Translations under genes and position numbers: made by a program
Shown here: one piece after another, positions 1 to 26,432 of the stretch
Layout of the letters: each line of letters begins with the position of its first letter
Numbering within the stretch: position 1 is the first letter of the stretch
Assembly: GCA_943787795.1 (NCBI GenBank)
Contig: CALSNU010000001.1
Coordinates: 224,001-288,000, forward strand
Source of the DNA: an uncultured bacterium
GTDB lineage: Bacteria > Planctomycetota > UBA1135 > GCA-002686595
DNA length: 64,000 nucleotides
Direction: 5' to 3'
The notes under the pieces: model-generated
Databases searched by the model: none
Told to the model about the DNA's origin: nothing
The model's input: the letters and a program-made list of their open reading frames with translations, nothing else

Positions 1-2
1 CC

Positions 3-1646
3 GCGAACCCGTCCCCGGACGGCGGCTTCGGGGACACCACCGATTCCCCGAGCAACCTCTCCACCACCGCGCTCGCGTGGATGGCGCTCGGGCCGGGCCT
101 CGGGCTGCCCGCCGACGAGGCCGTGGAGCGGGCGTGGACCCGCGCGGACGGCTGGCTCAGGGAGGCCCTGGGCGGGGCGCGCCCGGACTCCACTCGCCTC
201 GCGGCTGCGCTGGAGGAGATCTACGGCGAGGACCGCACCTTCGCCGTGCCGATCCTGGCGGCCTGCACCATCGGTGGCGCCTTCGCGGAGGACCCCGACC
301 CCTGGAGGGTGGTGCGCCCCCTGCCCTTCGAGGTCGCGGCGCTGCCCCAGGGGCTGTTCCGGTTCCTGGGTCTCCCGGTCGTGAGCTACGCGCTGCCTGC
401 GCTGATCGCCATCGGCCAGGGGATCGCCCACCACCGGCCGAGCCGCAACCCCGTCGCTCGCCTCCTGCGCCGGGCCCTGGCGCCGCGCACGCTCCGGGTG
501 CTCACGGGGATCCAGCCCGAGAACGGCGGCTTCCTCGAGGCGACGCCGCTCACGAGCTTCGTCACGCTCTCCCTGGTGGCGATCGGCGAGGTCCAACATC
601 AGGTGGTCTCCCGGGGCCTCTCGTTCCTTCGGGCGTCCGTCCGCGCGGACGGGTCCTGGCCCATTGACACCGACCTCGCCACCTGGGGGACGACCCTCTC
701 GGTGGGGGCGCTCGGCGCGGGCTTCGAGGGCGCCGAGCGCATCAAGGGGTGGCTCCTCGATCAGCAGCACACCGTGCGGCACCCGTTCACCGGCGCGGCC
801 CCGGGGGGCTGGGCCTGGACCGACCTCCCCGGCGGCGTGCCGGACGCGGACGACACGCCGGGAGCCCTGATCGCCCTCCGACTCCTCGAGGGGGACACGC
901 CCTCGCCCGGGGCGCGCGCGGCGGCCGCCGCGGGGCTCCGCTGGTTGGTCGATCTGCAGAACCGGGACGGCGGCATCCCGACCTTCTGCAGGGGGTGGGG
1001 CCGGCTCCCCTTCGACCAGAGCTGCGCGGACCTCACCGCCCATGCGCTGCGGGCGTTCGACGTGTGGGAGGGTGCACTCGGTGGGGCGGCGGCGGAGGAC
1101 CTCGGCCGCCGGATGGAGCGAGCGCGGGCCCGGGCCGTCGGGTTCCTCGTCCGGCGGCAGTCCCCCGACGGCTCGTGGACCCCGCTCTGGTTCGGCAACC
1201 AGGAGCACCCGGAGAAGCTCAACCCCCTCTACGGCACCAGCCGCGTCCTGCGCGCGGCCGGGGTTCGGGTCGCCGGAGGATCCGCCGAGGGCTGGCGGGC
1301 CGCCCTCGAGCGGGGGGCCGCGTGGCTGCGGTCCGCCCAGGGCGCCGACGGCGGCTTCGGCGGCGCCCCGGGGCTCACCCCGACCGTCGAGGAGACCGGC
1401 CTCGCGCTCGAGGCCCTGGTGGACCTCGTGGAGGCTGGCCTGGGGGAGGAGGGTGACCTCGACCGGGTCCGCCGCGCCGCCCGCTGGCTCACCGAGCGGA
1501 CCGACGGCGGCCGATCGTTCCCGCGCACGCCCATCGGGCTCTACTTCGCGCAGCTCTGGTACCACGAGGAGCTCTACCCGGTGGTCTTCACCGCCTCCGG
1601 CCTCGGCGCCGCGCGCCGGCTCCTGGGGCCGTCAGCCCGGAGTTGA
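3..1646 (+). CDS. Squalene-hopene cyclase-like class II terpene cyclase (prenyltransferase/squalene oxidase repeats), 5'-truncated by the window edge
   Basis: Frame is open from base 3 (ANPSPDGGFGDTTDSPSNLSTT). QW-type repeats QPENGGF, RADGSW, QNRDGGI, QSPDGSW, QGADGGF. Catalytic DxDD motif in GGWAWTDLPGGVPDADDT. Confidence 0.88.
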   Translation, partial: ANPSPDGGFGDTTDSPSNLSTTALAWMALGPGLGLPADEAVERAWTRADGWLREALGGARPDSTRLAAALEEIYGEDRTFAVPILAACTIGGAFAEDPDPWRVVRPLPFEVAALPQGLFRFLGLPVVSYALPALIAIGQGIAHHRPSRNPVARLLRRALAPRTLRVLTGIQPENGGFLEATPLTSFVTLSLVAIGEVQHQVVSRGLSFLRASVRADGSWPIDTDLATWGTTLSVGALGAGFEGAERIKGWLLDQQHTVRHPFTGAAPGGWAWTDLPGGVPDADDTPGALIALRLLEGDTPSPGARAAAAAGLRWLVDLQNRDGGIPTFCRGWGRLPFDQSCADLTAHALRAFDVWEGALGGAAAEDLGRRMERARARAVGFLVRRQSPDGSWTPLWFGNQEHPEKLNPLYGTSRVLRAAGVRVAGGSAEGWRAALERGAAWLRSAQGADGGFGGAPGLTPTVEETGLALEALVDLVEAGLGEEGDLDRVRRAARWLTERTDGGRSFPRTPIGLYFAQLWYHEELYPVVFTASGLGAARRLLGPSARS

Positions 1647-5851: not shown

Positions 5852-5986
5852 GGCTGAGCTTGAGGATAGCCTCGCGCGAACGGGTTGGTGCTGCGTCTCT
5901 GGGTCGGCGCGGCTCGGAAGGGGGAGGACACCCAGCAAAGGAGCCCGGGAGGACCTATCCTGCGGCCCGTCCCACGGGAGCGCCCC

Positions 5987-7153
5987 TTGCCGGAAGAACG
6001 ACGCGACACCATCTACCTCGACCACGCCGCGACCACCCCCCTGGACCCGCGCGTGCTGGAGGCCATGCTCCCCTTCCTGCAGGGCTCCTTCGGGAACGCG
6101 TCGAGTCCCCACGCTGCGGGCCGCGAGGCCTCTGGGGCGGTGGAGGAGGCCCGCGGCCGCGTGGCCCTGGCCCTCGGCGCGGACCCCCGGGAGGTGGTCT
6201 TCACCAGCGGCGCCACCGAGTCGAACAACCTGGCCCTGCGCGGGGTGGCCCGGGCCCAGGCCCACGCCCGGCGTCCGCGCCGGGTGGTCACCTGCGTGAC
6301 CGAGCACCATGCGGTGCTCGACCCCCTCGCCGCGCTCGAGGCCGAGGGCTTCGAGGTGGTGCGTCTCGGCGTGGACCGCGAGGGGCACCTGGACCTCGGC
6401 CGGCTGGAAGAGGAGCTCGCGCGCGGGGTACTGCTGGTGTCCCTCATGAGCGCGAACAACGAGACCGGCGGACGGCACCCCATTGCCGAGATCGGCGCGC
6501 GCTGCAGGGAGCACGGCGCGCTGTTTCACACGGACGCCACCCAGACCTTCGGCAAGGAGCCCCTGGACGTGGACGAGGCCTCGGTGGACCTCCTCAGCCT
6601 CTCGGCCCACAAGCTCTACGGGCCCAAGGGAGTGGGGGCGCTCTACCTGCGCCGCAAGCGACCCCGCGTGCGGGTGGAGCCGCTGCTCGAGGGCGGCGGG
6701 CATGAGGGCGGGCGGCGCTCGGGGACGCTGAACGTGCCGGGTATCGTGGGGCTCGGGGCCGCGACTCGCCTGGCGGAGGCCGAGCGCGGCGCGGAGGCGG
6801 CCCGCGTGGGGGCGCTGCGCGACCGGTTCGAGGCGACGCTCCGCGACGGCGTCCCGGGCCTGAAGGTCGTTGGCGATCCCTCCGATCGCCTGGCGGGGCA
6901 CTCCAACCTGGCGTTTCCGGGCATCGACGGGGACGACCTCCTCAAGGCGATGCCGGACGTCTGCGCCTCGACCGCCGCGGCCTGCACCAGCGCGAGCCTG
7001 GAGCGCAGCCATGTGCTGCGGGCGTTGGGGCATGACCCCGAGGCCGTGGTGGGGAGCGTACGCTTCTCCCTCGGCCGGACGACGACCGAGGGCGAGGTGG
7101 AGCGAGCGGCGCGACGGATCCTCGACGGGCTTCACCGGGTGACGGGAGCCTGA
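5987..7153 (+). CDS. iscS: Cysteine desulfurase (IscS/NifS group I, PLP-dependent)
   Basis: IYLDHAATTP, FGNASS, FTSGATESNN, EHHAV, SAHKLYGPKG (PLP Lys), RSGTLNVPGIVG and catalytic Cys in STAAACTS. Start chosen at TTG 5987 after GGGAG; the ORF is open from 5885. Confidence 0.9.
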   Translation: MPEERRDTIYLDHAATTPLDPRVLEAMLPFLQGSFGNASSPHAAGREASGAVEEARGRVALALGADPREVVFTSGATESNNLALRGVARAQAHARRPRRVVTCVTEHHAVLDPLAALEAEGFEVVRLGVDREGHLDLGRLEEELARGVLLVSLMSANNETGGRHPIAEIGARCREHGALFHTDATQTFGKEPLDVDEASVDLLSLSAHKLYGPKGVGALYLRRKRPRVRVEPLLEGGGHEGGRRSGTLNVPGIVGLGAATRLAEAERGAEAARVGALRDRFEATLRDGVPGLKVVGDPSDRLAGHSNLAFPGIDGDDLLKAMPDVCASTAAACTSASLERSHVLRALGHDPEAVVGSVRFSLGRTTTEGEVERAARRILDGLHRVTGA

Positions 7154-7401
7154 GGCCACCCGGGCGCCCGGGGCAGGGGTGGGTACCGCGTTGGCTCGCC
7201 GGAGCGCTCGGCGCGCAGGGCCGCTCTCGACGGAGCGGAAGAGTCCCGACGGGAGTCGTGTGAAAGGTCCAGGCAAAGGGGGCTGGCGGACGCCTGAGGG
7301 CCCAACTCCTGGGCCCCGAGCGAGTACCATGCGGCCCCTTGATCGCGCGCCTCGCTCGACCAGCGCGGCGCGGCTGCCCTCCCCCGGACTCACAGGACCG
7401 C

Positions 7402-9648
7402 ATGACCCCCCGAACGGCCCTCCACCAGGCGACCGCGGCGCTGCTCGCGCTCGCGTCCTTATCCTCCAGCGCCTTGGCCCAGGAAGGCCCCCGCGGCTGG
7501 CTGAGCTGGCGCGGTCCCGATCAGAACGGGACCTCTACCGAGGTCGGCCTGCCCGGCGCGCCCGATCTGGAGGAGAACCTCGCCTGGACCTACGAGATGG
7601 CGGGGCGAGGCACGCCGGTCATCGCCGACGGCAAGCTCTTCGGCATGGGGTACGACGGCAAGGGGGAGACCCTCCAGGAGGTCCTGTTCTGCCTGGACGC
7701 CGCCACCGGCAAGGAGCTCTGGACCCGCCGCTTCCCGGACTTCATCAGCGACGTCATCTATACGCGCTACGCCATCGGGAGCCCGACCGTGGACCCGGAG
7801 ACGGGAAACGTCTTCGCGCTCACCGGACCGGGGCTCATCCATGGCTTCACCCCCGACGGCGAGCTGCTCTGGCAGCGGTCCATGATGGAGGACCTCGGCC
7901 GGCTGACGTTCCCCAACGGCCGCGTGGGGGCGCCGCTGATCGTGGGCGACCTCGTCATCGTCCACTTCATCTTCGCGGCATGGGGGCCGGACTTTGGACC
8001 TGCGCGGGATCGCTTCTACGCCTTCGACAAGCGCACCGGTGAGGTGGTCTGGGGCGCGACGCCGGGCGGCCCGCCGAAGGACAGCTCCTTCTCCATGCCG
8101 ATCGTAGAGCTGCGCGACGGCCGCTTCGTGTTCTACGCGGGGATGGGGGGCGGCTACACCTCATGCGTGGACGCCATGACCGGCGAGGTCATCTGGCAGT
8201 ACCCCTTCAGCATCGGCGGCATCAACTCAAGCGCCCTGATCCACGGCGACAAGCTGATCATCATCCACGGCAAGGAGAACCGCGACTCCAGCGTCATTGG
8301 CCGGATGGTCGCCCTGGATCTGACCGCGAAGCCGGGGGAGGACGGCGTGCTCCCGAAGACCGCGGAGCTCTGGCGCAACGACCTGGTGGCGTTCACCAGC
8401 TCGCCGATCCTCGTGGGGGACACGGTGTTCGCGACGACCCTGACCGGGGAGTTGAACGCGATCAACGTGAACAACGGCGAGGTCATGTGGCACGAGAAGC
8501 TGGGCGACAGCCAGCTCCACGCCTCGCCGGCCTATGGCGATAACAAGCTCTACATCCCCCTCGCGGACGGCACCTTCCACGTGCTCGCCCTCGGCGGGAG
8601 CCGGGCCGCCAAGCTCGGGGTCGCGAACCTCGGCGGCAGCTGCCTGGGCGCCCCGGCCATCGCCGGGGGCCGCGTCTACGTCCACAGCACCGAGCGCCTC
8701 CACTGCTTCACCGAGGAGCCCGCGGAGCTGCCGGCCTGGCCCGCGCAGCAGTGGGACGCGGCCGCGGCCCCCGAGCTCGGGGCGCCGACCCAGCTGCAGG
8801 TGGTCCCCTTCGACCAGACCGTGCGCGTGGGCGAGTCCATCGACCTAGAGCTCCGCTGGCTCGACGCCTCCGGGCGCGTCGTGAAGCGGGTGCCGTCCGC
8901 CGAGGCGGAGGTCACCGTGGCCGCGCGCCAGAAGGCGCCCCTCGCGGAGAAGCAGGCCGACGGCGCCTGGGTCGCGGCCAACCCCGGCGCGGGCAAGGCC
9001 ATGGTCAAGCTCGAGGGGGCGGCGGGCGCCGCCCGGGTGCGGGTCGTGCCGAGCCTCCCCTTCGCGCAGGACTTCTCGGGGTTCCAGCTGAACCAGGCCG
9101 AGGGCACCTTCGCCTTCCCTCCGGGCGAGTGGCTCGGCGGCCGCCTCAAGTGGAAGATCATCGACAAGGACGGCGAGCGCCTCCTGACCCGCAACATGGC
9201 CAACCCGCTGTTCCAGCGGACCATGACCCTGTTCGGCGCCGCCGATGACGCCAACTACACCGTCCAGGTGGACGTGATGTCCGACGGCAACCGCCGGACG
9301 CTCTCCTCGCCTGGCGTCGTGAACCAGCGCTACCAGTTCGTCCTCAAGGGCAACTACCAGGAGCTCGAGGTCAGCTCCAACATGGAGCACTTCAAGCAGA
9401 GCGCCAAGTTCCGCTGGAAGGCGGGCATCTGGTACACGCTGAAGACGCGCGTCGACCTGCAGGCCGACGGCAGCGCCCTCGTGCGCGGCAAGGTCTGGCC
9501 GCGCAGCGAGCCCGAGCCCGAGGCCTGGACCCTCGAGGCCACCGACCCCCACGGACACCGCTGCGGAGCAGCGGGCCTGTACGGCTTCACACCGCAGAGC
9601 CGCTACACCATCTACATGGACAATCTGAGCGTGACCCCCAATGACTAG
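7402..9648 (+). CDS. Large exported PQQ-like beta-propeller protein with Ig-like and C-terminal beta-sandwich domains
   Basis: Signal peptide ending ALA-Q, GWLSWRGPDQNG, repeated DAATGKELW/DKRTGEVVW/DAMTGEVIW blades, beta-rich C-terminal ~290 aa. Confidence 0.85.
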   Translation: MTPRTALHQATAALLALASLSSSALAQEGPRGWLSWRGPDQNGTSTEVGLPGAPDLEENLAWTYEMAGRGTPVIADGKLFGMGYDGKGETLQEVLFCLDAATGKELWTRRFPDFISDVIYTRYAIGSPTVDPETGNVFALTGPGLIHGFTPDGELLWQRSMMEDLGRLTFPNGRVGAPLIVGDLVIVHFIFAAWGPDFGPARDRFYAFDKRTGEVVWGATPGGPPKDSSFSMPIVELRDGRFVFYAGMGGGYTSCVDAMTGEVIWQYPFSIGGINSSALIHGDKLIIIHGKENRDSSVIGRMVALDLTAKPGEDGVLPKTAELWRNDLVAFTSSPILVGDTVFATTLTGELNAINVNNGEVMWHEKLGDSQLHASPAYGDNKLYIPLADGTFHVLALGGSRAAKLGVANLGGSCLGAPAIAGGRVYVHSTERLHCFTEEPAELPAWPAQQWDAAAAPELGAPTQLQVVPFDQTVRVGESIDLELRWLDASGRVVKRVPSAEAEVTVAARQKAPLAEKQADGAWVAANPGAGKAMVKLEGAAGAARVRVVPSLPFAQDFSGFQLNQAEGTFAFPPGEWLGGRLKWKIIDKDGERLLTRNMANPLFQRTMTLFGAADDANYTVQVDVMSDGNRRTLSSPGVVNQRYQFVLKGNYQELEVSSNMEHFKQSAKFRWKAGIWYTLKTRVDLQADGSALVRGKVWPRSEPEPEAWTLEATDPHGHRCGAAGLYGFTPQSRYTIYMDNLSVTPND

Positions 9649-11293
9649 GCACCTGTTCACCCTCGCTGGCATCGCCGGCCTCTCGCTGTCCGCCCTGGGC
9701 TCCACGGCATGTGCGATGGCAGCCCCGGCAGCCCCGGCAAGCCCGGCAAGCCCGGCAGCCCCGGCGCTCCTGGCGCCGCCGGTCACCGTGGCTCCCACCG
9801 CGACCCAGGACTGGCCCGCGTGGGGGGGCGGCGAGTCGCGGAACATGGCCTCGACGGTCACCGGCCTCCCCGGCGACTTCACCGCCGGGGACTTCAAGCC
9901 CGGCACCGATGAGGTCGACCTCTCCACGACCAAGAACGTCCAGTGGGTCGCCAAGCTCGGCTCCCAGAGCTACGGGAACCCCACGGTCTCCGGCGGGCGC
10001 ATCTTCGTCGGCACCAACAACGACTCGCCCCGCGACCCTCGCTTCAAGGGGGACCGCTCCACGGTCTATTGCCTGGACGAGAAGACAGGCGACTACATCT
10101 GGCAGCTGAACGTGCCCAAGCTCGGCACGGGCAAGGTGTCGGACTGGGAGTACCTGGGCATCTGCTGCTCGCCGACCGTCGACGGGGACGAGGTCTACAT
10201 CGTCACGAACCGCTGCGAGGTCATGTGCCTCGACGTGCACGGCATGGCCAACGGCAACCAGGGGTACCAGGACGAGGGCAAGTACATGGCCTGGCCCTCC
10301 ACGGAGCCCATGGAGGTGACCGACACGGACGCCGACATCCTGTGGGTGTTCAACATGATCGACGAGTGCGGCGTGTTCCCTCACAACATCACCACCAGCG
10401 CGGTGCTGGTGGCGGGGGAGCGCCTCTGGGTCACCTCGTCCAACGGGGTCGACTACGGCCACGTGGAGACGCCGGCGCCCAACGCGCCGAGCCTGCTCCT
10501 CCTGGACAAGCAGACCGGCGCCCTGATCGGCGAGGAGGCCTCGGGCTGCTCCTCGCGCATCTTCCACTCGAACTGGTCCTCGCCCGCGTACCTGCGCAAG
10601 GGCGAGACCGAGCTCTGCATCTTTGGCGGGCCGGACGGCTGGCTCTACGCCTTCAAGCCGGAGCCCATCGAGGGGCCGGACGGGTGGCCGATCCTGGACG
10701 AGGCCTGGCGCTTCGACGCGAACCTGCCCGAGTACCGGATGAAGGACGGCGAGCCCATCAAGTACACGGACCGGGACGGGCCCAGCGAGGTCCTCGCCAC
10801 GCCCATCGTCCACGACGGCAAGGTCTACGCGCCCATCGGCCAGGACCCCGAGCACGGCCCCGGCGTGGGCAACCTGGTGTGCCTCGACCACACGGGCAAG
10901 CAGCTTTGGAACTACTCCAAGATCAACCGCTCGCTCTCGACCCTCGCGGTCTACGACGGGATGGTCTTCGCCTCGGACTTCTCGGGCTACGTCTACTGCC
11001 TCGACGCGTTGACCGGTGAGGAGTACTGGATCTACGACACCAAGGGCCACATCTGGGCCTCGCCCTTCGTGGCGGACGGGAAGGTCTACATCGGGAACGA
11101 GGACGGCTTCCTGACGATCCTCCCCGCCCGCAAGGACGCCGACCCCAAGAAGGAGATGGTCGAGGTCGACATGGTTAGCCCGGTCTACGCCTCGGTGATC
11201 GCGGCGAACGGGGTCCTCTACGTGGGCACCCACACGCACCTCTACGCGGTGGCGGCTGGCGCCGGCGCGGCCAAGGAAGAAGAGGGGCGCTGA
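9641..11293 (+). CDS. Exported PQQ-like beta-propeller protein
   Basis: Signal peptide and Ala/Pro linker, DWPAWGG, GSQSYGNPTVSGGRIFVGTNN, DEKTGDYIW, DALTGEEYW. Overlaps the upstream stop by 8 nt. Confidence 0.85.
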   Translation: MTRHLFTLAGIAGLSLSALGSTACAMAAPAAPASPASPAAPALLAPPVTVAPTATQDWPAWGGGESRNMASTVTGLPGDFTAGDFKPGTDEVDLSTTKNVQWVAKLGSQSYGNPTVSGGRIFVGTNNDSPRDPRFKGDRSTVYCLDEKTGDYIWQLNVPKLGTGKVSDWEYLGICCSPTVDGDEVYIVTNRCEVMCLDVHGMANGNQGYQDEGKYMAWPSTEPMEVTDTDADILWVFNMIDECGVFPHNITTSAVLVAGERLWVTSSNGVDYGHVETPAPNAPSLLLLDKQTGALIGEEASGCSSRIFHSNWSSPAYLRKGETELCIFGGPDGWLYAFKPEPIEGPDGWPILDEAWRFDANLPEYRMKDGEPIKYTDRDGPSEVLATPIVHDGKVYAPIGQDPEHGPGVGNLVCLDHTGKQLWNYSKINRSLSTLAVYDGMVFASDFSGYVYCLDALTGEEYWIYDTKGHIWASPFVADGKVYIGNEDGFLTILPARKDADPKKEMVEVDMVSPVYASVIAANGVLYVGTHTHLYAVAAGAGAAKEEEGR

Positions 11294-11300
11294 GGGCCGC

Positions 11301-11555
11301 ATGTCCGGCAGCGCACGCATCGGATGGGGCCTGATGGCCGTCATCACGGTCCTCCACTTCGACTTCTGGAACTGGGAGACGACCTCGGTGGTCTTCGGGT
11401 TCATGCCCAAGGGCCTCGCCTGGCAGGCAGGCATCTCGCTCGCCGCCGCGGCGGGCTGGGCGCTGCTCATGAACGTCGCGTGGCCCTCCCGCGTCGAGGA
11501 CTGGGCGGCCCAACCGTCGTCCCTCGACGGTGAGTCCTCGGAGGACCCCTCGTGA
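11301..11555 (+). CDS. DUF3311-like small membrane protein, partner of the solute symporter
   Basis: 84 aa, two TM helices, LHFDFWNW...FGFMP.GLAW. GTGA overlap with the symporter start. Confidence 0.75.
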   Translation: MSGSARIGWGLMAVITVLHFDFWNWETTSVVFGFMPKGLAWQAGISLAAAAGWALLMNVAWPSRVEDWAAQPSSLDGESSEDPS

Positions 11556-13138
11556 TGGCCCTGCTCCTCCCCGCGGCCGAGACGGCGTCACGCACGCCGC
11601 TGCTCGTCGTTGGCTTCTACCTGCTGCTGCTGATCGGCCTTGGGGTCCTCTCCAGTCGCCTGTTCCGCGGGACGTCCGCCGACTTCTTCGTGGCGGAGCG
11701 GTCCATCGGGCCGTTCCTGCTGCTCATGAGCGTGTTCGGCACGACCATGACCGCCTTCGCCCTGGTCGGCTCCACGGGCAAGGCGTGGGAGCTCGGCAAC
11801 GGCGTGTACGGGCTGATGGCCTCGGCCTCAGGGATCGTGCACTCGGCGGTGTTCTTCCTGGTGGGGATCAAGCTGTGGGCCATCGGCAAGCGCCACGGCT
11901 TCCGCACCCAGGTGCAGTACTTCCGGGGCCGCTTCCAGTCGAACCTCCTGGGCTACCTGCTGTTTCCGATCCTGGTGGCGCTGGTCGTGCCCTACCTGTT
12001 GATCGGCCTGCTGGGCGCCGGCGCGGTCATGCGCGGCGTGACCGTGGGCATGTTCCCCGAGACCTTCGCGGGCACCACCCTGCCGAACGGCCGGGTGATG
12101 TTCGAGGGCTCGATCCCGCCCTGGATCACGGGGCTCGTGGTCTGCGCCGTGGTGCTCTTCTACATCTTCGCCGGCGGCCTGCGCTCCGCGGCCTGGGCGA
12201 ACGCCTTCCAGACCATCGTGTTCATGATCACGGGCGTGATCGCCTTCGTCTTGATCTCGAGCAAGCTCGGGGGGATGGACGCCGCGACCCAGGCGGTGAT
12301 CGATAACTCGCCCGACCACATGACCCGGGCGCGGATCGGCAAGCTGCAGTTCGTGACCTACATGTTCGTGCCGCTGTCGGTGGGCATGTTCCCGCACCTG
12401 TTCCAGCACTGGCTCACGGCCAAGAAGGCGTCGACCTTCAAGCTGACGACGGTGGCGCACCCGCTGTTCATCGGGGTGGTCTGGGTGCCCTGCATCCTGA
12501 TCGGCATCTGGGCCGCGGGCGCGGGGATCATGCCTCCGGGCGGCAACCCGAACGCCCTGCTGCCCAAGATCGTCCAGACCCTGCTCCAGGACCCCTACCT
12601 CACGGGGCTCCTCACCGCCGGCATCCTGGCCGCCATCATGTCGTCCCTGGACTCCCAGTTCGTCTGTCTGGGGACCATGTTCACCCACGACATCGTCATG
12701 CACGCTGCTGGGGAGAAGCGCTTCTCCGACCGGGCCCAGGTGATGCTGGGACGGGGGTTCATCGTCTTCGTGGTGGGGGTGACCTACCTGCTGACGTTCT
12801 TCCCGCCGCCCAAGATCTTCGATCTGGCCGTGTGGTGCTTCAGCGGCTTCGCGGCCCTGTTCCCCCTGGTCTTCGCCTCGATCTACTGGCGCAGAACGAC
12901 GCGGGCGGGGGCCATCGCCTCGGTCCTGGCCATGGTGGTGACCTGGGGCACCTTGTTCTACGAAGGGCTCATCAGGCCGACCCTGGCCGGCGAAGAGATG
13001 GAAGGCGACTTCCTGGTGGCCGGAATGATGCCGGTCACCCTGATCTTCGCCGCCTCCACAGCTGCCCTGGTCCTCGTCAGCCTCATGACGAAGCCCCCCT
13101 CCGACGAGCACGTCGAGCAGTTCATGGTGGAGTCCTGA
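11552..13138 (+). CDS. Sodium:solute symporter (SSS family)
   Basis: About 13 hydrophobic segments, DFFVAERSIG, YIFAGGLRSAAWANAFQ, GILAAIMSSLDSQ. Confidence 0.92.
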   Translation: MMALLLPAAETASRTPLLVVGFYLLLLIGLGVLSSRLFRGTSADFFVAERSIGPFLLLMSVFGTTMTAFALVGSTGKAWELGNGVYGLMASASGIVHSAVFFLVGIKLWAIGKRHGFRTQVQYFRGRFQSNLLGYLLFPILVALVVPYLLIGLLGAGAVMRGVTVGMFPETFAGTTLPNGRVMFEGSIPPWITGLVVCAVVLFYIFAGGLRSAAWANAFQTIVFMITGVIAFVLISSKLGGMDAATQAVIDNSPDHMTRARIGKLQFVTYMFVPLSVGMFPHLFQHWLTAKKASTFKLTTVAHPLFIGVVWVPCILIGIWAAGAGIMPPGGNPNALLPKIVQTLLQDPYLTGLLTAGILAAIMSSLDSQFVCLGTMFTHDIVMHAAGEKRFSDRAQVMLGRGFIVFVVGVTYLLTFFPPPKIFDLAVWCFSGFAALFPLVFASIYWRRTTRAGAIASVLAMVVTWGTLFYEGLIRPTLAGEEMEGDFLVAGMMPVTLIFAASTAALVLVSLMTKPPSDEHVEQFMVES

Positions 13139-13160
13139 TCCACCCCCTCTCTCTCCGAGC

Positions 13161-14243
13161 ATGACCGCAGTCTCCAACGACCGGATCGAGGCCGCCCAGG
13201 CGGCCCTCGATGCCCACGTCCGCGACATCATCGCGCACCACTTCTCCCCCGAGACCGGGACCCCCGTATGGCTGGACTACGCCAAGTCCGCAGGCTGGGA
13301 TCCGCGCGAGGAGGTCCGCTCCTTCGCGGACCTCATCGAGCGCTTCGATAACTTCGACGGGGAGCGGCTGCGCACCGACGCCCACGAGATGTGGATCCCC
13401 CGCGCCTTTGCGGGCCGGCCCTTCACGATCTTCGAGACCGGCGGCTCCACGGGCATGCCCAAGCAGCGCATCGGCTGGGACGACTACAAGCTCGACTACG
13501 AGGAGTTCTCCGAGCTCCTCGACGACGAGGCCTTCCCCCCCGGCGGCTACTGGTTGATGGTCGGCCCCACCGGGCCCCGGCGCCTGCGCCTCGCCATCGA
13601 GCACCTCGCCAACCACCGCGGCTCCTCGTGCTACTTCGTGGACCTCGACCCGCGCTGGGTGAAGAAGCTGATCTCCTCGGGCCAAGGGGACCAGGCCAAG
13701 GACTACATGCGCCACGTGGTCGATCAGGCCCTGAGCATCCTCAAGCACCGCAAGGTGGACGCGCTCTTCACGACGCCGCGGCTGCTCGAGGCGCTGGGCG
13801 ACGAGATCTCGATCCCCGACGCCGGCATCAAGGGCGTCTTCTGCGGCGGCACCGAGATGGACCCCCAGAACGTGCGCTTCCTCTGCGAGGAGATCCTCGA
13901 GGGGCAGGTCGGCTTCGTGCCCACCTACGGCAACACGCTCATGGGCCTCGCCTGCCACAAGAAGGGCTTCGAGCAGGAGAACTACTCGATCACCTACTAC
14001 GCGCCGCAGCCCCGCGCGGTCCTGCGCGTGACCGACCCCGAGGACTCGCGCAAGCTCGTGGACCACGGCGAGTGGGGCCGCGTGGAGCTCACGACCCTGA
14101 CCCACGAGTTCTTCCTGCCGCGCTTCCTCGAGCGCGACGCCGCCAAGCGCATCGCGCCCTGCGAGGACTTCGCCTGGGATGGCGTGGCCGAGGTGAAGCC
14201 CTACGCCAAGAACGAGGAGAAGATCGTGGAGGGCGTCTATTGA
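13161..14243 (+). CDS. EhpF/GriC-like atypical adenylating enzyme (aryl-carboxylate activating subunit)
   Basis: HFSPETGTPVW, P-loop FETGGSTGMPK, PTGP, DLDPRWVKK, FTTPRLL, GGTEM, YGNT, ERD and terminal IVEGVY match in order my recollection of the phenazine-modifying enzyme EhpF. Confidence 0.78.
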   Translation: MTAVSNDRIEAAQAALDAHVRDIIAHHFSPETGTPVWLDYAKSAGWDPREEVRSFADLIERFDNFDGERLRTDAHEMWIPRAFAGRPFTIFETGGSTGMPKQRIGWDDYKLDYEEFSELLDDEAFPPGGYWLMVGPTGPRRLRLAIEHLANHRGSSCYFVDLDPRWVKKLISSGQGDQAKDYMRHVVDQALSILKHRKVDALFTTPRLLEALGDEISIPDAGIKGVFCGGTEMDPQNVRFLCEEILEGQVGFVPTYGNTLMGLACHKKGFEQENYSITYYAPQPRAVLRVTDPEDSRKLVDHGEWGRVELTTLTHEFFLPRFLERDAAKRIAPCEDFAWDGVAEVKPYAKNEEKIVEGVY

Positions 14244-15694
14244 GCGCTGCAGCCAGTGACGTCCCGCACTTCCCGGTGCTGCGGGCGGGCAAGGAGTACT
14301 CCAGCCTCGACCGGGTCGAGCTGACCTCGCACCGCGACGGCAGCGTCGTCGCCTCCATCAGCCAGGCAAACGCCGGGCTGGTGCGGCGAGACATGCGCAA
14401 GCTCGACCAGAACACCGAGCGGCTGCGGGCCATGCCCATGGCCGAGCGGATCGAGCGCTGCCGCGAGGCGGCGCGGATCTTCCTGGAGGACGACCTGCCC
14501 ATCGGCGACGGCGTGATGCAGTCCGCCGACGACTACGTCGCGCAGCTCAGCTCCACCAGCGGCCTGCCCCACGTGATGGTGCGGGCCAACATGGAGAAGT
14601 GCGCCTTCGTCCTCGCCGAGATGACCACCATCCTGCGCGGCCTCATGCGCGGCATGGACCCCGGCGTGCTCGACCAGGGCTACGGGGACCACGACGGCGT
14701 GCCCGTGTGGTACACGCCCAGCGCCCGCGCCCTGGGCGCGGTGCTCCCGAGCAACTCGCCTGGCGTCCACTCGCTCTGGATCCCGTCCATCGCCCTCGGC
14801 GTGCCCCTGGCCCTCAAGCCGGGCCGCGAGGAGCCCTGGACGCCCATGCGCATCGCGCGGGCGATGATGGCCGCGGGCTTCCCGTCGGAGGCCTTCAGCC
14901 TCTATCCCACCGACCACGAAGGGGCCGGCACCCTGCTCGAGTGCTGCGACCGCTCCCTGCTCTTCGGCGACGCCCGCGTGGCCGAGAAGTACGCCGGCGA
15001 CCCGCGCATCGAGATCCACGGGCCCGGCCGCAGCAAGGTGCTGGTGGGGGACGACGTGGCGGACGACTGGGAGCAGTTCATGGACGTCTACGTGGACTCG
15101 GTGGCCCGCAACGGCGGCCGGAGCTGCATCAACGCCTCCGCGATCTATATCCCGCGCCACGGCGAGGCCCTCGCCGAGGCGCTCGCCGCGCGCCTCGCCC
15201 AGATCGAGCCGCGACCCCACGACGACCCGGACGCGCAGATCGCCGCCTTCGCCAACCCGGCGTTTGCCGACATGATGAGCGGCGCGATCGACGCCGGCAT
15301 CGAGAAGGGCGGCGCCCACGACGTGACCATGGCGGCGCGGGGCGGCTCGGCTCGCCGCGCGGAGCTCGGCTGCTCGGTCTACCTGCGTCCGACCGTGGTG
15401 CGCTGCGACTCGATGGAGCACCCCCTCGCGAACACCGAGTACATGTTCCCCTTCACCAGCGTGGTGGAGGTGCCCCAGGAGCGCATGCTCGAGGTCATGG
15501 GCCCGAGCCTCGTGGTCTCCGCGCTCAGCCGAGACGCTGCCTTCCTGCAGTCGCTCACCACGAGCCCGCTGATCAGCCGGCTGAACGTCGGGCCGGTCCC
15601 CACCTCCACGGTGGAGTGGGATCAACCCCACGAGGGCAACCTGTTCGAGTTCCTGCACGAGCGCCGCGCGCTCCAGCGCGCCGCCGGCTGGTAG
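14240..15694 (+). CDS. Aldehyde dehydrogenase-fold protein, GriD/EhpG-like (acyl-adenylate reductase subunit)
   Basis: TTG start overlapping the upstream TGA. LPSNSPGVH, LKPGREEP, HGPGRSK, catalytic Cys in NGGRSCINAS, EYMFPF, QPHEGNL. Confidence 0.8.
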   Translation: MSAAASDVPHFPVLRAGKEYSSLDRVELTSHRDGSVVASISQANAGLVRRDMRKLDQNTERLRAMPMAERIERCREAARIFLEDDLPIGDGVMQSADDYVAQLSSTSGLPHVMVRANMEKCAFVLAEMTTILRGLMRGMDPGVLDQGYGDHDGVPVWYTPSARALGAVLPSNSPGVHSLWIPSIALGVPLALKPGREEPWTPMRIARAMMAAGFPSEAFSLYPTDHEGAGTLLECCDRSLLFGDARVAEKYAGDPRIEIHGPGRSKVLVGDDVADDWEQFMDVYVDSVARNGGRSCINASAIYIPRHGEALAEALAARLAQIEPRPHDDPDAQIAAFANPAFADMMSGAIDAGIEKGGAHDVTMAARGGSARRAELGCSVYLRPTVVRCDSMEHPLANTEYMFPFTSVVEVPQERMLEVMGPSLVVSALSRDAAFLQSLTTSPLISRLNVGPVPTSTVEWDQPHEGNLFEFLHERRALQRAAGW

Positions 15695-15705
15695 GCAGCG
15701 GGCCC

Positions 15706-16878
15706 ATGTTCCGCGAGGACGAGCGCACACGGGTCATCGAGGCGTCCGGGGGGCTGGCCCGCCTGGGGGCGCTGGCCGCAGAGCTCGGCGGGTCGCGGGT
15801 CATGGTGGTCTCCGACCCCGGGGTCGCCGCTGCCGGGCACGCGGCGCGGGCGGCGGAGGTGCTGAGGAGCGCTGGGCTCGAGGTCGAACTCCACATCGAC
15901 GTCGCGGAGAACCCGAAGAGCAGCGACGTGGCCAAGGCGGCCGCCGTGGCGGCCGCGTTTGGTCCGGACCTCTATGTCGCGGTGGGCGGTGGGAGCGCCA
16001 TCGACACCGCCAAGGGCGCGAACTTCGTGGAGGTGTGCGGCGGCCGTATGGAGGACTACCGCGGGCATGACACCGCCACGGCCGCCCTCCGACCGCTCAT
16101 CGCGGTGCCCACGACCGCGGGGACCGGGTCCGAGGTCCAGTCGTTCGCGCTCATCGGGGACGGCGAGACGGGGGCCAAGATGGCCTGCGGCGACCCCTCC
16201 GCGGCACCACGGGCCGCGCTCCTCGACCCCGAGCTGACCCTCTCGATGCCCCGCCGAGTCACGGCCATGACGGGCCTGGACACCCTTGCTCACGCCGTGG
16301 AGAGCGCGGTCGCGCGGCCCCGTGACCCGTCCACCGACGGCCGCAGCCGGGAGTACGGCTGCTCCGCCTTCGCCCTCGTCAGCGCGGGGCTGCCCCGGGT
16401 GCTCGAGGCGCCCGGGGACCTGGACGCGCGGGCCAGCATGATGCGGGCGTCCGCGCTGGCGGGCCTCGCCATCGAGCACGCCATGCTCGGGGTCGCTCAC
16501 TCCATGGCCAACCCCCTCACCCGCCACCACGGCGTTCCCCATGGCCTGGCCGTTGGCCTGATGTTGCCCCACGTGGTGCGCTTCAACGCGGCGGATGACT
16601 CGGCCGCCGGGGACACGATCCGCGGGACCTATGCGGCCCTCGCCGCAGCGGCTGGCCTGGATGGAGCCAGCGACGCGGCCCTCGCCGGGGCCCTGGCCGA
16701 TCGGTGCGCGCGCCTCCTCGAGCTCTCCGGGCTGAGCACCGGCCTACGGCAGCTCGGGGTCACGGCCGCAGACCTCCCCGTCCTCGCGGCCGAGGCGGAC
16801 GAGCAGTGGACGGCTCGCTTCAACCCCCGCGGGGTGGACGCGGCGGCCTTCGAGGGGCTGCTGAGCGCCGCGCTCTGA
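15706..16878 (+). CDS. Iron-containing alcohol dehydrogenase
   Basis: VAVGGGSAIDTAK, PTTAGTGSE, LLDPELT, DTLAHAVE, HSMANPL...PHG (metal-binding Asp/His). Confidence 0.9.
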   Translation: MFREDERTRVIEASGGLARLGALAAELGGSRVMVVSDPGVAAAGHAARAAEVLRSAGLEVELHIDVAENPKSSDVAKAAAVAAAFGPDLYVAVGGGSAIDTAKGANFVEVCGGRMEDYRGHDTATAALRPLIAVPTTAGTGSEVQSFALIGDGETGAKMACGDPSAAPRAALLDPELTLSMPRRVTAMTGLDTLAHAVESAVARPRDPSTDGRSREYGCSAFALVSAGLPRVLEAPGDLDARASMMRASALAGLAIEHAMLGVAHSMANPLTRHHGVPHGLAVGLMLPHVVRFNAADDSAAGDTIRGTYAALAAAAGLDGASDAALAGALADRCARLLELSGLSTGLRQLGVTAADLPVLAAEADEQWTARFNPRGVDAAAFEGLLSAAL

Positions 16879-17060
16879 CGGCACCTGGGGCGCCTCCGGC
16901 GCCGGGTGGCCTGTCGCGATCTGGGGGTCTCGAGGGCCCGTAAGGTGGCGCCGTTGGGGGTCGCCGCTGATCTCGCCGGAGAGGCCGTGCGTCGCTCGCC
17001 GAATCCCGCACACTCTGGCGCTCTCCGGCGCCCCCATGGGGGGCCAGGGACGACCCCTCC

Positions 17061-19310: not shown

Positions 19311-20543
19311 ATGCTGTCACTTCTCTTAGCGCTCGCCGTCGGGGCCCCCGACTGGCCCGACTTCCGAGGCCCCGGGCGGGACGGGCACGCGGACGGCGTG
19401 GACCTCCCCATGTCATGGAGCGAGGAGGAGCACGTGGTCTGGAAGACCGCGATCCACGGTCGGGGCTGGTCCTCACCGGTGTTGCTGGAGGGGCGCGCGT
19501 GGCTGACCACGGCGCCGTCCAAGGGCGGCGCGCTCTCCGTCATCGCCGTGGACCTTGACTCCGGAGAGGTCGTGGTGGATCGGGTGGTGTTCGAGGTCGC
19601 CGAGCCGGAGCCCCGCAACGGTCTCAACAGCTACGCCTCGCCGAGCCCGGTGGTGGCGGAAGGGCGGGTCTTCGTGCACTTCGGGACCTACGGCACCGCG
19701 TGCCTGGACGCGGAGACCGGCGAGACCGTCTGGTCGAGGACGGACCTGAAGTGCGATCACCTCGAGGGCCCCGGGTCGTCCCCGCTCTTGCAGGACGGGC
19801 GCCTCTTCCTCCACCTCGATGGCGCCGACGTCCAGTACCTCGTGGCGCTCGACCCGAAGACCGGGGAGACCCTGTGGAGAACGGAGCGGACCGCGGACCT
19901 CGAGCCCCTCGCGCCCGACTTCCGCAAGGCGTATAGCACGCCGCTGCTCACCACGATGAAGGGAGCGGAGGGGCCCCGGCCGGTGCTGATCAGCTCCGCC
20001 GCGCGGGCCACCTACGGGTATGACCCCGCCACCGGCGCCGAGCTCTGGAGGATGGATCACCCCGGCTTCTCCATGGCGTCGCGGCCGCTGCTCGTGGACG
20101 ACAAGCTCTACGTCTCCACGGGCTTCATGCGCCCCGAGCTGTGGGCCTTCAAGATCGGGGGCGCCGGCAACATCACGGACGACGCCTTCCTGTGGCGCAA
20201 CACCCGCGGCGTCCCGACCATGCCCTCCTCCGTGATCGTCGGCGGGCTCCTGTTCCAGGTCAGCGATCGCGGGATGGCGTCAGCGGTGGACCTCGAGACG
20301 GGTGAGACGCGCTGGCAAGAGCGGCTCGGTGAGAGCCACTGCGCCTCGCTGCTCGCGAGCGGCGACCGCATCTACGCCTTCGGCGTGGAGGGCAAGTCCT
20401 CCGTCTTCCGGGCCAGCGGGAGCTTCGAGAAGCTCGCGGAGGGTCAGCTCGAGGCGGGCTTCATGGCCTCGCCGGCGGTGCTCGGCGACGCGCTCATCCT
20501 GCGGACGAAGACTCACCTCTACCGGATCGAGGCGGCGCAGTGA
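19311..20543 (+). CDS. Exported PQQ-like beta-propeller protein
   Basis: Short signal peptide, DWPDFRGP, GWSSPV, NSYASPSPV, DAETGETVW. Confidence 0.88.
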   Translation: MLSLLLALAVGAPDWPDFRGPGRDGHADGVDLPMSWSEEEHVVWKTAIHGRGWSSPVLLEGRAWLTTAPSKGGALSVIAVDLDSGEVVVDRVVFEVAEPEPRNGLNSYASPSPVVAEGRVFVHFGTYGTACLDAETGETVWSRTDLKCDHLEGPGSSPLLQDGRLFLHLDGADVQYLVALDPKTGETLWRTERTADLEPLAPDFRKAYSTPLLTTMKGAEGPRPVLISSAARATYGYDPATGAELWRMDHPGFSMASRPLLVDDKLYVSTGFMRPELWAFKIGGAGNITDDAFLWRNTRGVPTMPSSVIVGGLLFQVSDRGMASAVDLETGETRWQERLGESHCASLLASGDRIYAFGVEGKSSVFRASGSFEKLAEGQLEAGFMASPAVLGDALILRTKTHLYRIEAAQ

Positions 20544-25229: not shown

Positions 25230-26432
25230 ATGCTGATGGTCATGGTTCCCTGGGTCACGCTGCCCCTCGCGGGTGCGATCGGCGCCGCCGCCCCCGCTCT
25301 CGCTGGAGTGGACCCGGTCGCGGCCTCGGTGGAGGTCCCCGCCTCCGAGGAGGAGTGGCCGCTCTTTCGAGGTGACAGTCACCTGTCAGGGATCGCGTCC
25401 AGCGCGCTCCCCGCGGACCTCGAGCTCAGCTGGACCTACGATGCTGGAAAGGCGATCACGTCCTCTCCGGTGGTCGCCGGTGGCCGGGTCTTCTTCGGGG
25501 CCGACGACCATGCGGTCCACTGCGCCGACGCGAGCAGCGGAGAGCCCGTTTGGAAGTTCATGACCGAGGACCTCGTGGAGGCGCCGCCGCTGGTCCTCGA
25601 CGGGACCGTCTTCATCGGGAGTAACGACACCTTCTTCTACGCCATCGACGCCGCGACCGGCGAGCTCCGCTGGAAGGCGCCGACCATGGACAAGATCCTC
25701 GGCGGCGCCAACCACGTGTCGGTGGGGGAGCGCTCCGTGGTGGTCGTGGGGTCCTACGACAATCGCCTGTACGCCTTCGATGCGAAGACGGGTGAGCAGC
25801 TCTGGGCCTACGAGACCGACAACTACGTGAACGGCACCCCGGCCATCGACGAGGGGCGCGCGATCTTCGGCGGCTGCGACGCCATCCTGCACGTGGTGGA
25901 CGTCACGGTCGGCAAGCGGGCCGCCGCGGTCGAGCTGGGTGGCGACAGCCACATTGCGGGCTCCGCGGCCTTCCTGGGAGGACGGGCGTACTTCGGCCAC
26001 TACGGCAACCAGTTCGTGTGCGTGGACGTGGCGAAGGGCGAGGTGGTCTGGGCGTATGACTCACCGCGGCAGGCCTTCTTCTCCTCCCCGGCGATCACCG
26101 ACGACCTGGTGGTGTTCGGCGGCCGAGACCGGCATCTGCACTGCGTGCGCCGCGAGACCGGCGAGCCCGTCTGGAAGTTCCGGACCCGCCGCAAGGTGGA
26201 CGGCTCCCCGGTGGTCGCCGGCGACGCCGTGGTGTTCGGCTCCGATGATGGCCGGATGTACATGCTCGGCCTGCAGGACGGCGCCCAGCGCTGGAGCTAC
26301 GACATCGGCGAGCCTGTGCTCTCCTCGCCCGCGGTTGTGAACGGCCGGGTGTACGTGGGCGCCAACGACGGCCAGCTCTACTGCTTCGCCGCTCCTACGG
26401 CCGAGCTCAAGGACGCAGAGGTGGACCGTTGA
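25230..26432 (+). CDS. Exported PQQ-like/BamB-type beta-propeller protein
   Basis: EWPLFRGD followed by about eight regular SSPVV.GG.V..G..D blades. Start chosen at ATG 25230. Confidence 0.88.
   Translation: MLMVMVPWVTLPLAGAIGAAAPALAGVDPVAASVEVPASEEEWPLFRGDSHLSGIASSALPADLELSWTYDAGKAITSSPVVAGGRVFFGADDHAVHCADASSGEPVWKFMTEDLVEAPPLVLDGTVFIGSNDTFFYAIDAATGELRWKAPTMDKILGGANHVSVGERSVVVVGSYDNRLYAFDAKTGEQLWAYETDNYVNGTPAIDEGRAIFGGCDAILHVVDVTVGKRAAAVELGGDSHIAGSAAFLGGRAYFGHYGNQFVCVDVAKGEVVWAYDSPRQAFFSSPAITDDLVVFGGRDRHLHCVRRETGEPVWKFRTRRKVDGSPVVAGDAVVFGSDDGRMYMLGLQDGAQRWSYDIGEPVLSSPAVVNGRVYVGANDGQLYCFAAPTAELKDAEVDR

What the first reader, a model, noticed from the sequence alone, without database searches (positions are those of the whole stretch)
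7402..16878. Candidate undescribed pathway: exported propellers + symporter + EhpF/GriC-GriD-type carboxylate reductase + Fe-ADH in one operon
Seen: seven co-directional genes with overlapping or 7-22 bp junctions (9641/9648, 11552/11555, 14240/14243). Known: GriC/GriD of Streptomyces griseus grixazone synthesis form a two-component aryl-carboxylate reductase, and EhpF is the related adenylating enzyme of Pantoea phenazine (griseoluteate) modification. Here no phenazine core genes or 3-amino-4-hydroxybenzoate synthase genes are in the window; instead there is an importer and periplasmic propellers. Inference: an external (hetero)aromatic acid is captured, imported and reduced acid -> aldehyde -> alcohol for a product not yet described in this lineage.
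Basis: partly seen in the sequence, partly recalled or inferred. Interest (0 to 1): 0.85.

Follow-up and report, generated by a model that had tools for sequence, protein, structure and literature searches.

The report
Aryl-acid reductase arm serving propeller proteins
These seven tightly packed genes are one arm of a much larger, uncharacterised gene system of planctomycete-type bacteria that likely reduces a small aromatic acid to an alcohol, decorates it and exports it, and the system's exporter is found in the same genomes as a large family of secreted propeller proteins that the product may serve as a cofactor or ligand.

Summary
The seven genes and junctions are real. 13161-14243 is an EhpF homolog (E 9e-40); 14240-15694 is its EhpG/GriD-type partner (catalytic Cys kept, hydrolytic Glu replaced by His), so acid-to-aldehyde-to-alcohol reduction is likely, though untested. 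The operon is not self-contained. In 151 sampled genomes of the phylum the close EhpF class (30) coincides exactly with a HemN-like radical SAM enzyme, even when megabases apart. 21 of the 30 also carry a chorismate-lyase-like gene and a CoA ligase, pointing to a home-made 4-hydroxybenzoate-type substrate; this genome lacks both, so import may hold here only. The scan noted this operon six times on other DNA. New here: the linked FtsX-type ABC permease occurs in 42 of 43 genomes with an expanded exported W-x-x-W/F-R-G propeller family and in 0 of 108 others. 12 of the 13 such genomes without the EhpF arm carry a flavin/Fe-S redox module instead (1 of 13 EhpF genomes tested has it). An optional terpene module (SHC-like cyclase of unknown function) is confined to the same genomes. 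Best reading: a biosynthesis-and-export system whose product serves the propellers. Product unknown; no description found in the papers searched.

The parts
7402..9648 (+). Propeller A: exported BamB/PQQ-like beta-propeller with a C-terminal extra domain (748 aa); module-specific ortholog
   Evidence: Pfam PQQ_2; hydrophobic N-terminal stretch in 49 of 50 orthologs (heuristic); upstream of EhpF-like in 59 of 59 loci
9641..11293 (+). Propeller B: exported BamB-like beta-propeller (550 aa) with many invariant Asp/Glu/His/Asn residues; predicted periplasmic enzyme or maturase
   Evidence: model pLDDT 78.8, best Foldseek matches BamB E 2e-21, 17-18% identity; found in all 30 EhpF genomes plus 3 others of 151
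11301..11555 (+). DUF3311-like small membrane protein, symporter partner (84 aa)
   Evidence: PF11755 E 1e-6, 29.2 bits against a cut-off of 30
11555..13138 (+). Sodium:solute symporter; accessory, not universal
   Evidence: PF00474; ortholog in 27 of 30 EhpF genomes; 0 of 49 Poribacteria-titled loci
13161..14243 (+). EhpF/GriC-type truncated adenylating enzyme (360 aa), ending in GVY like EhpF
   Evidence: PDB 3l2k/3hgu EhpF E 9e-40 over residues 18-360; own clade 100/99 in a 46-row tree; single copy in the genome
14240..15694 (+). EhpG/GriD-type ALDH-fold acyl reductase (484 aa): Asn172 and Cys296 kept, general-base Glu replaced (IHGPGRSK)
   Evidence: Alignment with partners of EhpF homologs; HGPGxSK in 76 of 77 orthologs; only genome hit of Pantoea EhpG, E 1e-30
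15706..16878 (+). Iron-containing alcohol dehydrogenase; predicted aldehyde-to-alcohol step
   Evidence: PF00465 + PF25137; within 8+ kb downstream in 37 of 60 loci
25230..26432 (+). Propeller C (ACSF4-type propeller), part of the shared core; start codon uncertain
   Evidence: PF13570 228.9 bits, above cut-off; also in genomes lacking the EhpF arm
26429..27775 (+). HemN-like (class C) radical SAM enzyme; constant partner of the EhpF-like gene in the sample
   Evidence: PDB HemN E 1e-43, NocN E 2e-32; same 30 of 151 genomes as the EhpF class
27791..29107 (+). GT4 glycosyltransferase with a conserved N-terminal CxxCxRD motif; shared core
   Evidence: (19 of 21 orthologs)
1..1646 (+). 3' part of an SHC-like terpene cyclase (starts upstream of the window); end of the optional terpene module
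   Evidence: 33 of 151 genomes, all among the 43 propeller-rich ones
5885..7153 (+). IscS-like cysteine desulfurase, next to the terpene module in several relatives; start uncertain
   Evidence: L018; L127, L130, L134
4565..5851 (-). Generic exported W-x-x-W/F-R-G propeller (expanded family)
19311..20543 (+). Generic exported W-x-x-W/F-R-G propeller (expanded family); query for the family survey

Best explanation
The seven genes are the likely aromatic-acid-reducing arm of a larger biosynthesis-and-export system whose product is predicted to be delivered to the periplasm for use by this lineage's many secreted propeller proteins. Steps, all inferred unless marked: (1) a 4-hydroxybenzoate-type acid is made from chorismate (lyase + CoA ligase, 21 of 30 carriers) or, in genomes like this one, a precursor comes in through the symporter; (2) the EhpF-like enzyme adenylates the carboxylate, the partner takes the acyl group on Cys296 and reduces it with NAD(P)H to the aldehyde, and the Fe-ADH gives the benzyl-type alcohol (family membership and motifs shown; activity not); (3) the HemN-like radical SAM enzyme and the flavin enzyme tailor the ring, optionally joined by a cyclised polyprenyl part from the terpene module; (4) the GT4 glycosylates it and the FtsX-type ABC exporter moves it out, with propellers A, B and C as dedicated periplasmic maturation or handling proteins; (5) the generic propellers use it as cofactor, ligand or covalent modification. 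Shown: co-inheritance of the parts. Not shown: substrate, product, order of steps, direction, binding.
For: EhpF match E 9e-40; partner motifs shared with EhpG-type proteins. GriC adenylates and GriD reduces an aryl acid (PMC10179220, passages); the ehp pathway turns phenazine dicarboxylate into a hydroxymethyl compound (PMC3175449, passages). EhpF class and radical SAM enzyme in the identical 30 of 151 genomes, unlinked in G035, G055, G072, G120, G134, G148. The flavin enzyme's 30 best-scoring genomes are the same 30. Chorismate-lyase-like gene (DUF98 fold, Foldseek E 8e-8) and PaaK-like ligase in the identical 21 genomes, all within the 30. FtsX permease in 42 of 43 propeller-rich genomes and 0 of 108 others, with mixed presence inside nine families. 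12 of 13 propeller-rich genomes without the EhpF arm carry a NuoEF-like/polyferredoxin/RnfB-like module beside the same core, against 1 of 13 EhpF genomes tested; both alternatives look reductive. SHC-like cyclase in 33 genomes, all propeller-rich, and physically joined to the EhpF arm in L008, L018 and G000, G058, G094, G112, G148.
Against: No activity, substrate or product is shown. 40 non-redundant generic propellers show no invariant catalytic or metal-binding set, and propeller B's best structural matches are BamB, a scaffold. Partly circular: the modules carry their own propellers, so some hit is guaranteed; the match counts (6-21 with at most 12 candidates scored) are a proxy, not copy numbers, and G039 has 15 weak matches without the system. 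Kin are not independent, and score cut-offs were chosen after seeing the data; the gaps are narrow for the flavin enzyme (1e-66 against 2e-63) and PaaK (1e-102 against 1e-97, plus one contig-cut gene in G141). This genome keeps the thioesterase and flavin enzyme but no lyase or PaaK ortholog was found (85% complete), which the simple CoA route does not explain. The lyase fold is shared with GntR/UTRA effector domains. 7 of 30 carriers lack the SHC-like gene. A record titled Sedimentisphaerales (L025; anaerobic by recall) has the flavin enzyme, which argues against O2-dependent halogenation.
Confidence: 0.42

Rival explanations
1. The system makes an envelope lipid: a glycosylated, prenylated or cyclised aromatic-terpenoid (meroterpenoid-like) membrane component. 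The FtsX-type ABC moves it toward the outer membrane; the propellers are carriers or scaffolds, and their expansion is a side effect.
For: Polyprenyl synthase, prenyltransferase-beta and SHC-like genes in 23 of 30 carriers and often adjacent. GT4 and a LolE/FtsX-type permease. PMC7306690 (passages and supplement) predicts a non-squalene polycyclic product for this cyclase. BamB-like fold.
Against: 6 of 30 carriers lack both the SHC-like and the DUF116-polyprenyl gene, one a single-contig genome (G121); G008, G014, G145 have the core with neither. Does not explain why dozens of scattered propellers track the permease.
Confidence: 0.25
2. It is an ordinary secondary-metabolite cluster that releases a halogenated or methylated, glycosylated benzyl-type antibiotic or signal; the propeller link is incidental.
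For: All characterised EhpF/GriC relatives lie in antibiotic or pigment clusters. The flavin enzyme resembles carrier-dependent halogenases (E 1e-49) and keeps the Lys (13 of 14) and WxWxIP (14 of 14) motifs. A planctomycete makes a dibrominated anisic acid from a lyase-halogenase pair (bioRxiv 10.1101/723874, passages).
Against: About 50-70% identity across three phyla, parts kept together even when dispersed, and an alternative Fe-S module on the same core are unlike a specialised metabolite cluster. BaaB is described as Bmp5-like, a different flavoprotein from the best hits.
Confidence: 0.1
3. The acid reduced is not a benzoate but another heteroaromatic or aliphatic acid (a LuxE/LuxC-like acyl reduction), and the lyase-like and PaaK-like genes supply a separate branch.
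For: The window's class is its own clade apart from the phenazine and PABA types. A second planctomycete EhpF-like clade sits with fatty-acyl-reductase, SCP2 and MMPL genes. 9 of 30 carriers lack the lyase.
Against: Lyase and PaaK occur only in EhpF carriers (21 of 21) and inside the operon in L093-L096 and L114-L116.
Confidence: 0.1
4. It is catabolic: propellers release or bind an external aromatic compound, the symporter imports it, and the enzymes oxidise or detoxify it for growth.
For: Symporter in 27 of 30 carriers; a symporter-EhpF-like-ALDH trio beside catabolic genes on a Halalkalicoccus plasmid.
Against: Constant radical SAM partner, GT4, exporter-type ABC and chorismate lyase point to synthesis; loss of the hydrolytic Glu argues against ordinary aldehyde oxidation; no ring-cleavage genes recur among the neighbours.
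Confidence: 0.08

Closest known systems
EhpF/EhpG of the D-alanylgriseoluteic acid pathway, Pantoea agglomerans (PDB 3l2k, 3hgu; plasmid locus L121)
   Same: 29% identity over the whole EhpF, same GVY end, adjacent ALDH-fold partner with Cys and xGPGRSK and PHxG motifs.
   Different: No phenazine core in the genome; separate clade; Fe-ADH instead of an SDR; radical SAM, GT4, ABC and propeller partners.
GriC/GriD carboxylic acid reductase of grixazone synthesis, Streptomyces griseus
   Same: Two-protein adenylate-then-reduce logic (PMC10179220, passages); proteins labelled arylcarboxylate reductase match at 31-34%.
   Different: GriC/GriD sequences themselves were not available for comparison; no 3,4-AHBA context seen; much larger system.
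SHC-like cyclase clade of unknown function in PVC bacteria (PMC7306690; PMC12414744)
   Same: Window 1-1646 is a divergent SHC-domain gene with a polyprenyl synthase nearby, as those papers describe; placement in that clade was not tested by a tree.
   Different: In the passages seen, the papers note only the polyprenyl synthase neighbour, not the link to the reductase arm, the ABC core or the propellers.
baaAB locus proposed for 3,5-dibromo-p-anisic acid, Planctomycetales strain 10988 (bioRxiv 10.1101/723874)
   Same: Adjacent chorismate-lyase-like and flavin halogenase-like genes in a planctomycete.
   Different: BaaB is described as Bmp5-like; no reductase, radical SAM, GT4 or export genes described in the passages seen.
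Redox-cofactor maturation systems with dependent enzyme families (PQQ, mycofactocin; recalled, no call)
   Same: A single-copy biosynthetic block with radical SAM, glycosyltransferase and transporter that tracks a scattered, expanded protein family.
   Different: No precursor peptide or pqqC found (whose controls were all silent, so uninformative); the propellers lack the quinoprotein vicinal-disulfide and heme motifs, apart from one CC in propeller B that is not invariant.

Membership tests
EhpF/GriC-EhpG/GriD two-component carboxylate reductase | Truncated ANL adenylating enzyme homologous to EhpF over its full length | tested here: met
   E 9e-40, residues 18-360 against 22-366
EhpF/GriC-EhpG/GriD two-component carboxylate reductase | Adjacent ALDH-fold partner with catalytic Cys and no general-base Glu | tested here: met
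   Cys296, Asn172, IHGPGRSK; sole genome hit of EhpG
EhpF/GriC-EhpG/GriD two-component carboxylate reductase | ATP- and NAD(P)H-dependent reduction of an aryl carboxylate | not testable with these tools
   Needs an enzyme assay
EhpF/GriC-EhpG/GriD two-component carboxylate reductase | Direct sequence comparison with S. griseus GriC/GriD | not tested
   No tool returned those sequences; only proteins labelled arylcarboxylate reductase
Phenazine-modifying (ehp-type) cluster | phzA/B, D, E, F, G core genes | tested here: not met
   No PhzA/B, D, G hit; PhzE and PhzF queries give only weak hits elsewhere; genome 85% complete
Phenylacetate-CoA ligase PaaK | Full ANL with C-terminal domain, PaaK as best match | tested here: not met
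   Only weak AMP-binding (21.7 bits, under cut-off) and no C-terminal domain; best PDB match is EhpF
Hydrolytic (oxidative) aldehyde dehydrogenase | General-base Glu in the LELGGK motif | tested here: not met
   His in 76 of 77 orthologs; all NCBIfam ALDH scores far under cut-off
PQQ-dependent quinoprotein dehydrogenase (propellers) | Conserved vicinal disulfide, Ca ligands and catalytic Asp; family score over cut-off | tested here: not met
   TIGR03075 29-43 bits (82 for propeller C) against 480; no invariant set in generic members
BamB | Single-copy lipoprotein scoring over the TIGR03300 cut-off | tested here: not met
   57-59 bits against 285; at least 13 paralogs with signal-peptide-like N-termini; fold similar
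Chorismate pyruvate-lyase (relatives' gene; not found in this genome) | DUF98/UbiC fold and lyase activity | tested here: inconclusive
   Fold met: 2nwi E 8e-8, UbiC E 4e-4, but GntR/UTRA domains also match; Atlas clusters 11-19% Chor_lyase/Rv2949c, recognition value under the tool's threshold; activity untested
Flavin-dependent halogenase (upstream of the window) | GxGxxG, catalytic Lys, WxWxIP | tested here: met
   the same fold group includes hydroxylases and reductases, so activity is open
Cofactor-biosynthesis system for a dependent protein family | Product bound by the dependent proteins and needed for their function | not testable with these tools
   Only co-occurrence tested

The most novel reading that the evidence does not exclude
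Planctomycetes, Poribacteria and some Verrucomicrobia make a so far unknown non-PQQ cofactor (a reduced, methylated, glycosylated hydroxybenzyl unit, in most lineages with a cyclised polyprenyl anchor made by the orphan SHC-like cyclase). It is exported by a dedicated FtsX-type ABC transporter and loaded onto the tens of BamB-annotated propellers in each genome, making them a new class of periplasmic enzymes; an ATP-driven GriC/D-type arm and a flavin/Fe-S arm are interchangeable routes to the same reduction.
Probability: 0.25. Interest if true: 0.93.

Novelty: categorically new. Interest (0 to 1): 0.76.

Why it matters
The reductase pair alone is a new member of a known kind. The system around it matched nothing in the searches run. 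It links three open questions: what the many 'BamB/PQQ-like' propellers of these bacteria do, what the SHC-like cyclase of unknown function makes (PMC12414744 and PMC7306690 call its substrate unknown and relevant to biomarker and cyclase-evolution questions), and what a 17- to 30-gene conserved block does in about 28% (42-43 of 151) of sampled genomes of the phylum. The co-inheritance gives direct tests: three purified enzymes, two knockouts and native MS of a propeller.

Tried and rejected
CC-1065/yatakemycin likeness (recalled lead from the HemN-like enzyme): passages read (PMC9570651, PMC8626424) gave no link; dropped. Expression: four RNA-library assemblies of one marine study cover window 1-20000 about evenly, both strands and gaps alike, so they may hold DNA; no conclusion on transcription. 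Promoter/terminator scan: nothing above shuffles. pqqC search of the genome found nothing, but no control rang. Salvage-versus-synthesis complementarity: no genome lacks both routes, but P is about 0.33. Search for a shared active site in generic propellers: none found. Planctopirus limnophila TraDIS paper (PMC10632474; passages and supplement searches): COG0635, 1012, 1454, 0644 and 1541 do not occur in supplementary file 1, while Plim_0306 (COG1657) is in its essential-gene figure; I could not map orthologs or confirm that this species has the system, and the main gene table was too large to read. The EhpF structure paper was not held. In the phylum of the Verrucomicrobiales record L022 only 3 of 151 genomes had the EhpF class, fewer than earlier scan notes suggest. 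Literature searches listed no paper on this operon; only open-licence papers and preprints are searched.
Full report
Observation. The gaps are -8, +7, -1, +22, -4 and +11 bp. The window is G000:C1:224001-288000 of a 4.7-Mb, 85%-complete genome; the nearest named loci (93-99% identical protein) include records titled Planctomycetota. Among the best 80 of 207 related loci, both propellers precede the adenylating gene in 59 of 59 loci with at least 8 kb upstream and the ALDH-like gene follows in 55 of 60 with at least 8 kb downstream; the symporter appears in 15 of 59 and in 0 of 49 Poribacteria-titled loci. Many of these loci are close kin.

The reductase pair. The only significant PDB matches of 13161-14243 are EhpF (E 9e-40, full length). 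The family is large: all 8000 scored candidates passed and 1302 cluster representatives match. In a 46-row tree the window's class is one side of a branch with 100/99 support, apart from six plasmid homologs (phenazine, PABA, PKS and archaeal contexts) and a second planctomycete clade; long branches make deeper joins unsure. The partner keeps Asn172 and Cys296 but has IHGPGRSK where hydrolytic ALDHs have LELGGK, like the partners of other EhpF homologs; 76 of 77 orthologs have HGPGxSK, and Pantoea EhpG hits only this gene in the genome. GriC forms an acyl-AMP and GriD reduces it (PMC10179220, passages), and the ehp pathway ends in a hydroxymethyl phenazine (PMC3175449, passages). Reduction of an acid to aldehyde and alcohol is therefore likely but is inference. 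No PhzA/B, D or G homolog was found.

The operon is one arm of something larger. In relatives a longer run recurs: propellers A and B, DUF3311, symporter, EhpF-like, ALDH-like, Fe-ADH, propeller C, HemN-like radical SAM, chorismate-lyase-like, flavin halogenase-like, GT4, 4HBT thioesterase, a membrane protein, PaaK-like ligase, ABC ATPase and an 1100-aa FtsX-type permease (L093-L096, L114-L116). In this genome propeller C, the radical SAM gene and GT4 lie at window 25230-29107, the flavin enzyme 11 kb upstream of the window and the thioesterase-to-permease block 3-8 kb downstream of it. In one even sample of 151 genomes of the phylum, the close EhpF class (E under 1e-100; next hits 1e-50) is in 30; 14 more have only the distant class. 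The radical SAM ortholog is in the same 30 and none of the other 121, also where the two genes are megabases apart. Propeller B is in the 30 plus 3, the symporter ortholog in 27 of the 30, and the 30 best-scoring genomes for the flavin enzyme are the same 30, with 9 others just below. The ALDH-like gene was found in 5 of 5 further carriers tested, unlinked in at least G035, G120 and G089.

Substrate. The 195-aa gene of relatives folds like DUF98/UbiC chorismate lyases (model pLDDT 86; 2nwi E 8e-8, UbiC E 4e-4, GntR effector domains also match). It is in 21 of the 30 carriers, with one weak outside hit (E 7e-4). The PaaK-like ortholog is in the same 21 (20 at E under 1e-100, one cut by a contig end; 18 other genomes have weaker PaaK-type hits). 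That points to 4-hydroxybenzoate chemistry made in the cell. The nine carriers without both genes, this genome among them, all have the symporter, and the three without the symporter have both genes, but this pattern has P about 0.33 by chance.

The core and the propeller family. This genome has 13 propellers with a W-x-x-W/F-R-G start and signal-peptide-like N-termini on three contigs. A generic member used as query gives best E at or under 1.3e-11 in 43 of the 151 genomes and 1.5e-6 or worse, or nothing, in 108. The FtsX-type permease is in 42 of those 43 (not found in G094, 90% complete) and 0 of the 108. Presence is mixed within nine families (f1, f2, f5, f12, f13, f21, f30, f40, f55), for example G000 against four same-family genomes lacking everything. 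All 30 EhpF carriers and all 33 SHC-like carriers are among the 43; the DUF116-polyprenyl synthase is in 33 of the 43 and one outsider.

An alternative arm. Of the 13 propeller-rich genomes without the EhpF class, 12 carry markers of a different block, beside core genes (propeller C, GT4, ABC or permease) or terpene genes where the locus was read: two other propellers, an NHL protein, an RnfB-like ferredoxin, a membrane polyferredoxin, a NuoEF-like flavoprotein and a 2Fe-2S protein (G006, G007, G077; G008, G014, G145; G040, G091, G110, G123; G060, G138; not found in G011). Among 13 of the 30 EhpF carriers tested, one (G104) had the marker (G016 and G058 were tested with the second marker only). 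Two near-exclusive arms on one core, one an ATP/NAD(P)H carboxylate reductase and one a flavin/Fe-S electron chain, suggest that a reduction is the step each supplies. That is inference.

The terpene module. The SHC-like gene ending at window 1646 follows GcvH-like, CobW-like, ferredoxin, radical SAM, DUF116-polyprenyl synthase and prenyltransferase genes. It is in 23 of 30 EhpF carriers and 10 of the 13 others, and is physically next to parts of the EhpF arm in several lineages. PMC12414744 (passages) calls the SHC-like clade of PVC bacteria uncharacterised; PMC7306690 (passages and supplement search) notes the nearby polyprenyl synthase and predicts a non-squalene product.

The propellers of the finding. 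A, B and C have hydrophobic N-terminal stretches in 49 of 50, 16 of 17 and 39 of 41 orthologs by a simple heuristic. B is a BamB-like propeller (Atlas gives only PQQ_2 clusters) but with many invariant Asp, Glu, His and Asn residues, which suggests catalysis or metal binding. The generic family conserves mainly structural residues. None meets BamB or quinoprotein cut-offs. Whether A and B bind each other is open.

Verdict. Most likely (0.42) the operon reduces a hydroxybenzoate-type acid as part of a pathway whose tailored, glycosylated product is exported for use by the propeller family; an envelope lipid (0.25) is the main rival. The specific new-cofactor reading has about 0.25. The scan noted this operon on six other genomes; its word searches for the propeller-permease-terpene link returned nothing. 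Ten paper searches (listings, with passages read) showed no description of the operon, but subscription journals are largely not covered and one supplementary table could not be read.

Noticed in passing
L097:15515-19998, L098:2-5888, L103:6445-11372, L104:6911-13127, L110:824-14438: A second planctomycete EhpF-like clade (14 of 151 genomes, 6 of 8 in family f29; 100/100 support) lacks an ALDH partner nearby and sits with MMPL, U32 peptidase-like, class III aminotransferase, SCP2 and fatty-acyl-reductase-like genes; may be a separate lipid pathway.
   Followed up: partly
L124:8514-12572 (NC_014299.1): Symporter, EhpF-like and ALDH-like genes in the same order on a Halalkalicoccus plasmid, without propellers.
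   Followed up: no
L122:8938-18065 (NZ_CP108024.1): EhpF-like gene directly before a type I PKS with no ALDH partner, perhaps a starter-loading enzyme.
   Followed up: no
window 27791-27860: The GT4 has a conserved N-terminal CxxCxRD motif (19 of 21 orthologs) that may bind a metal.
   Followed up: partly
L101:4302-7112 (G000:C1:214302-217112): GcvH-like protein with a Lys at the lipoyl position, CobW-like GTPase, small Cys-rich protein and ferredoxin travel with the SHC-like module; a carrier protein of unknown cargo.
   Followed up: partly
window 17061-25008: Cation-chloride cotransporter, Zn-ADH, PseC-like aminotransferase and a TPR protein separate the two halves of the system only in the closest relatives; likely insertions.
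   Followed up: partly
L026-L080: In Poribacteria-titled loci the module genes keep their order but are interleaved with many unrelated, variable genes.
   Followed up: no
window 2862-4502: Protein with two similar Cys-rich (CxxC...CxxC) membrane-associated halves, an internal duplication.
   Followed up: no
window 33602-39727: Five-gene set resembling hydroxyproline catabolism (DapA-like, GntR, ALDH, proline racemase, D-amino acid dehydrogenase); labels recalled from sequence, not tested.
   Followed up: no
L095:11534-13501: In G010 the chorismate-lyase-like and flavin halogenase-like genes are fused in one ORF.
   Followed up: partly
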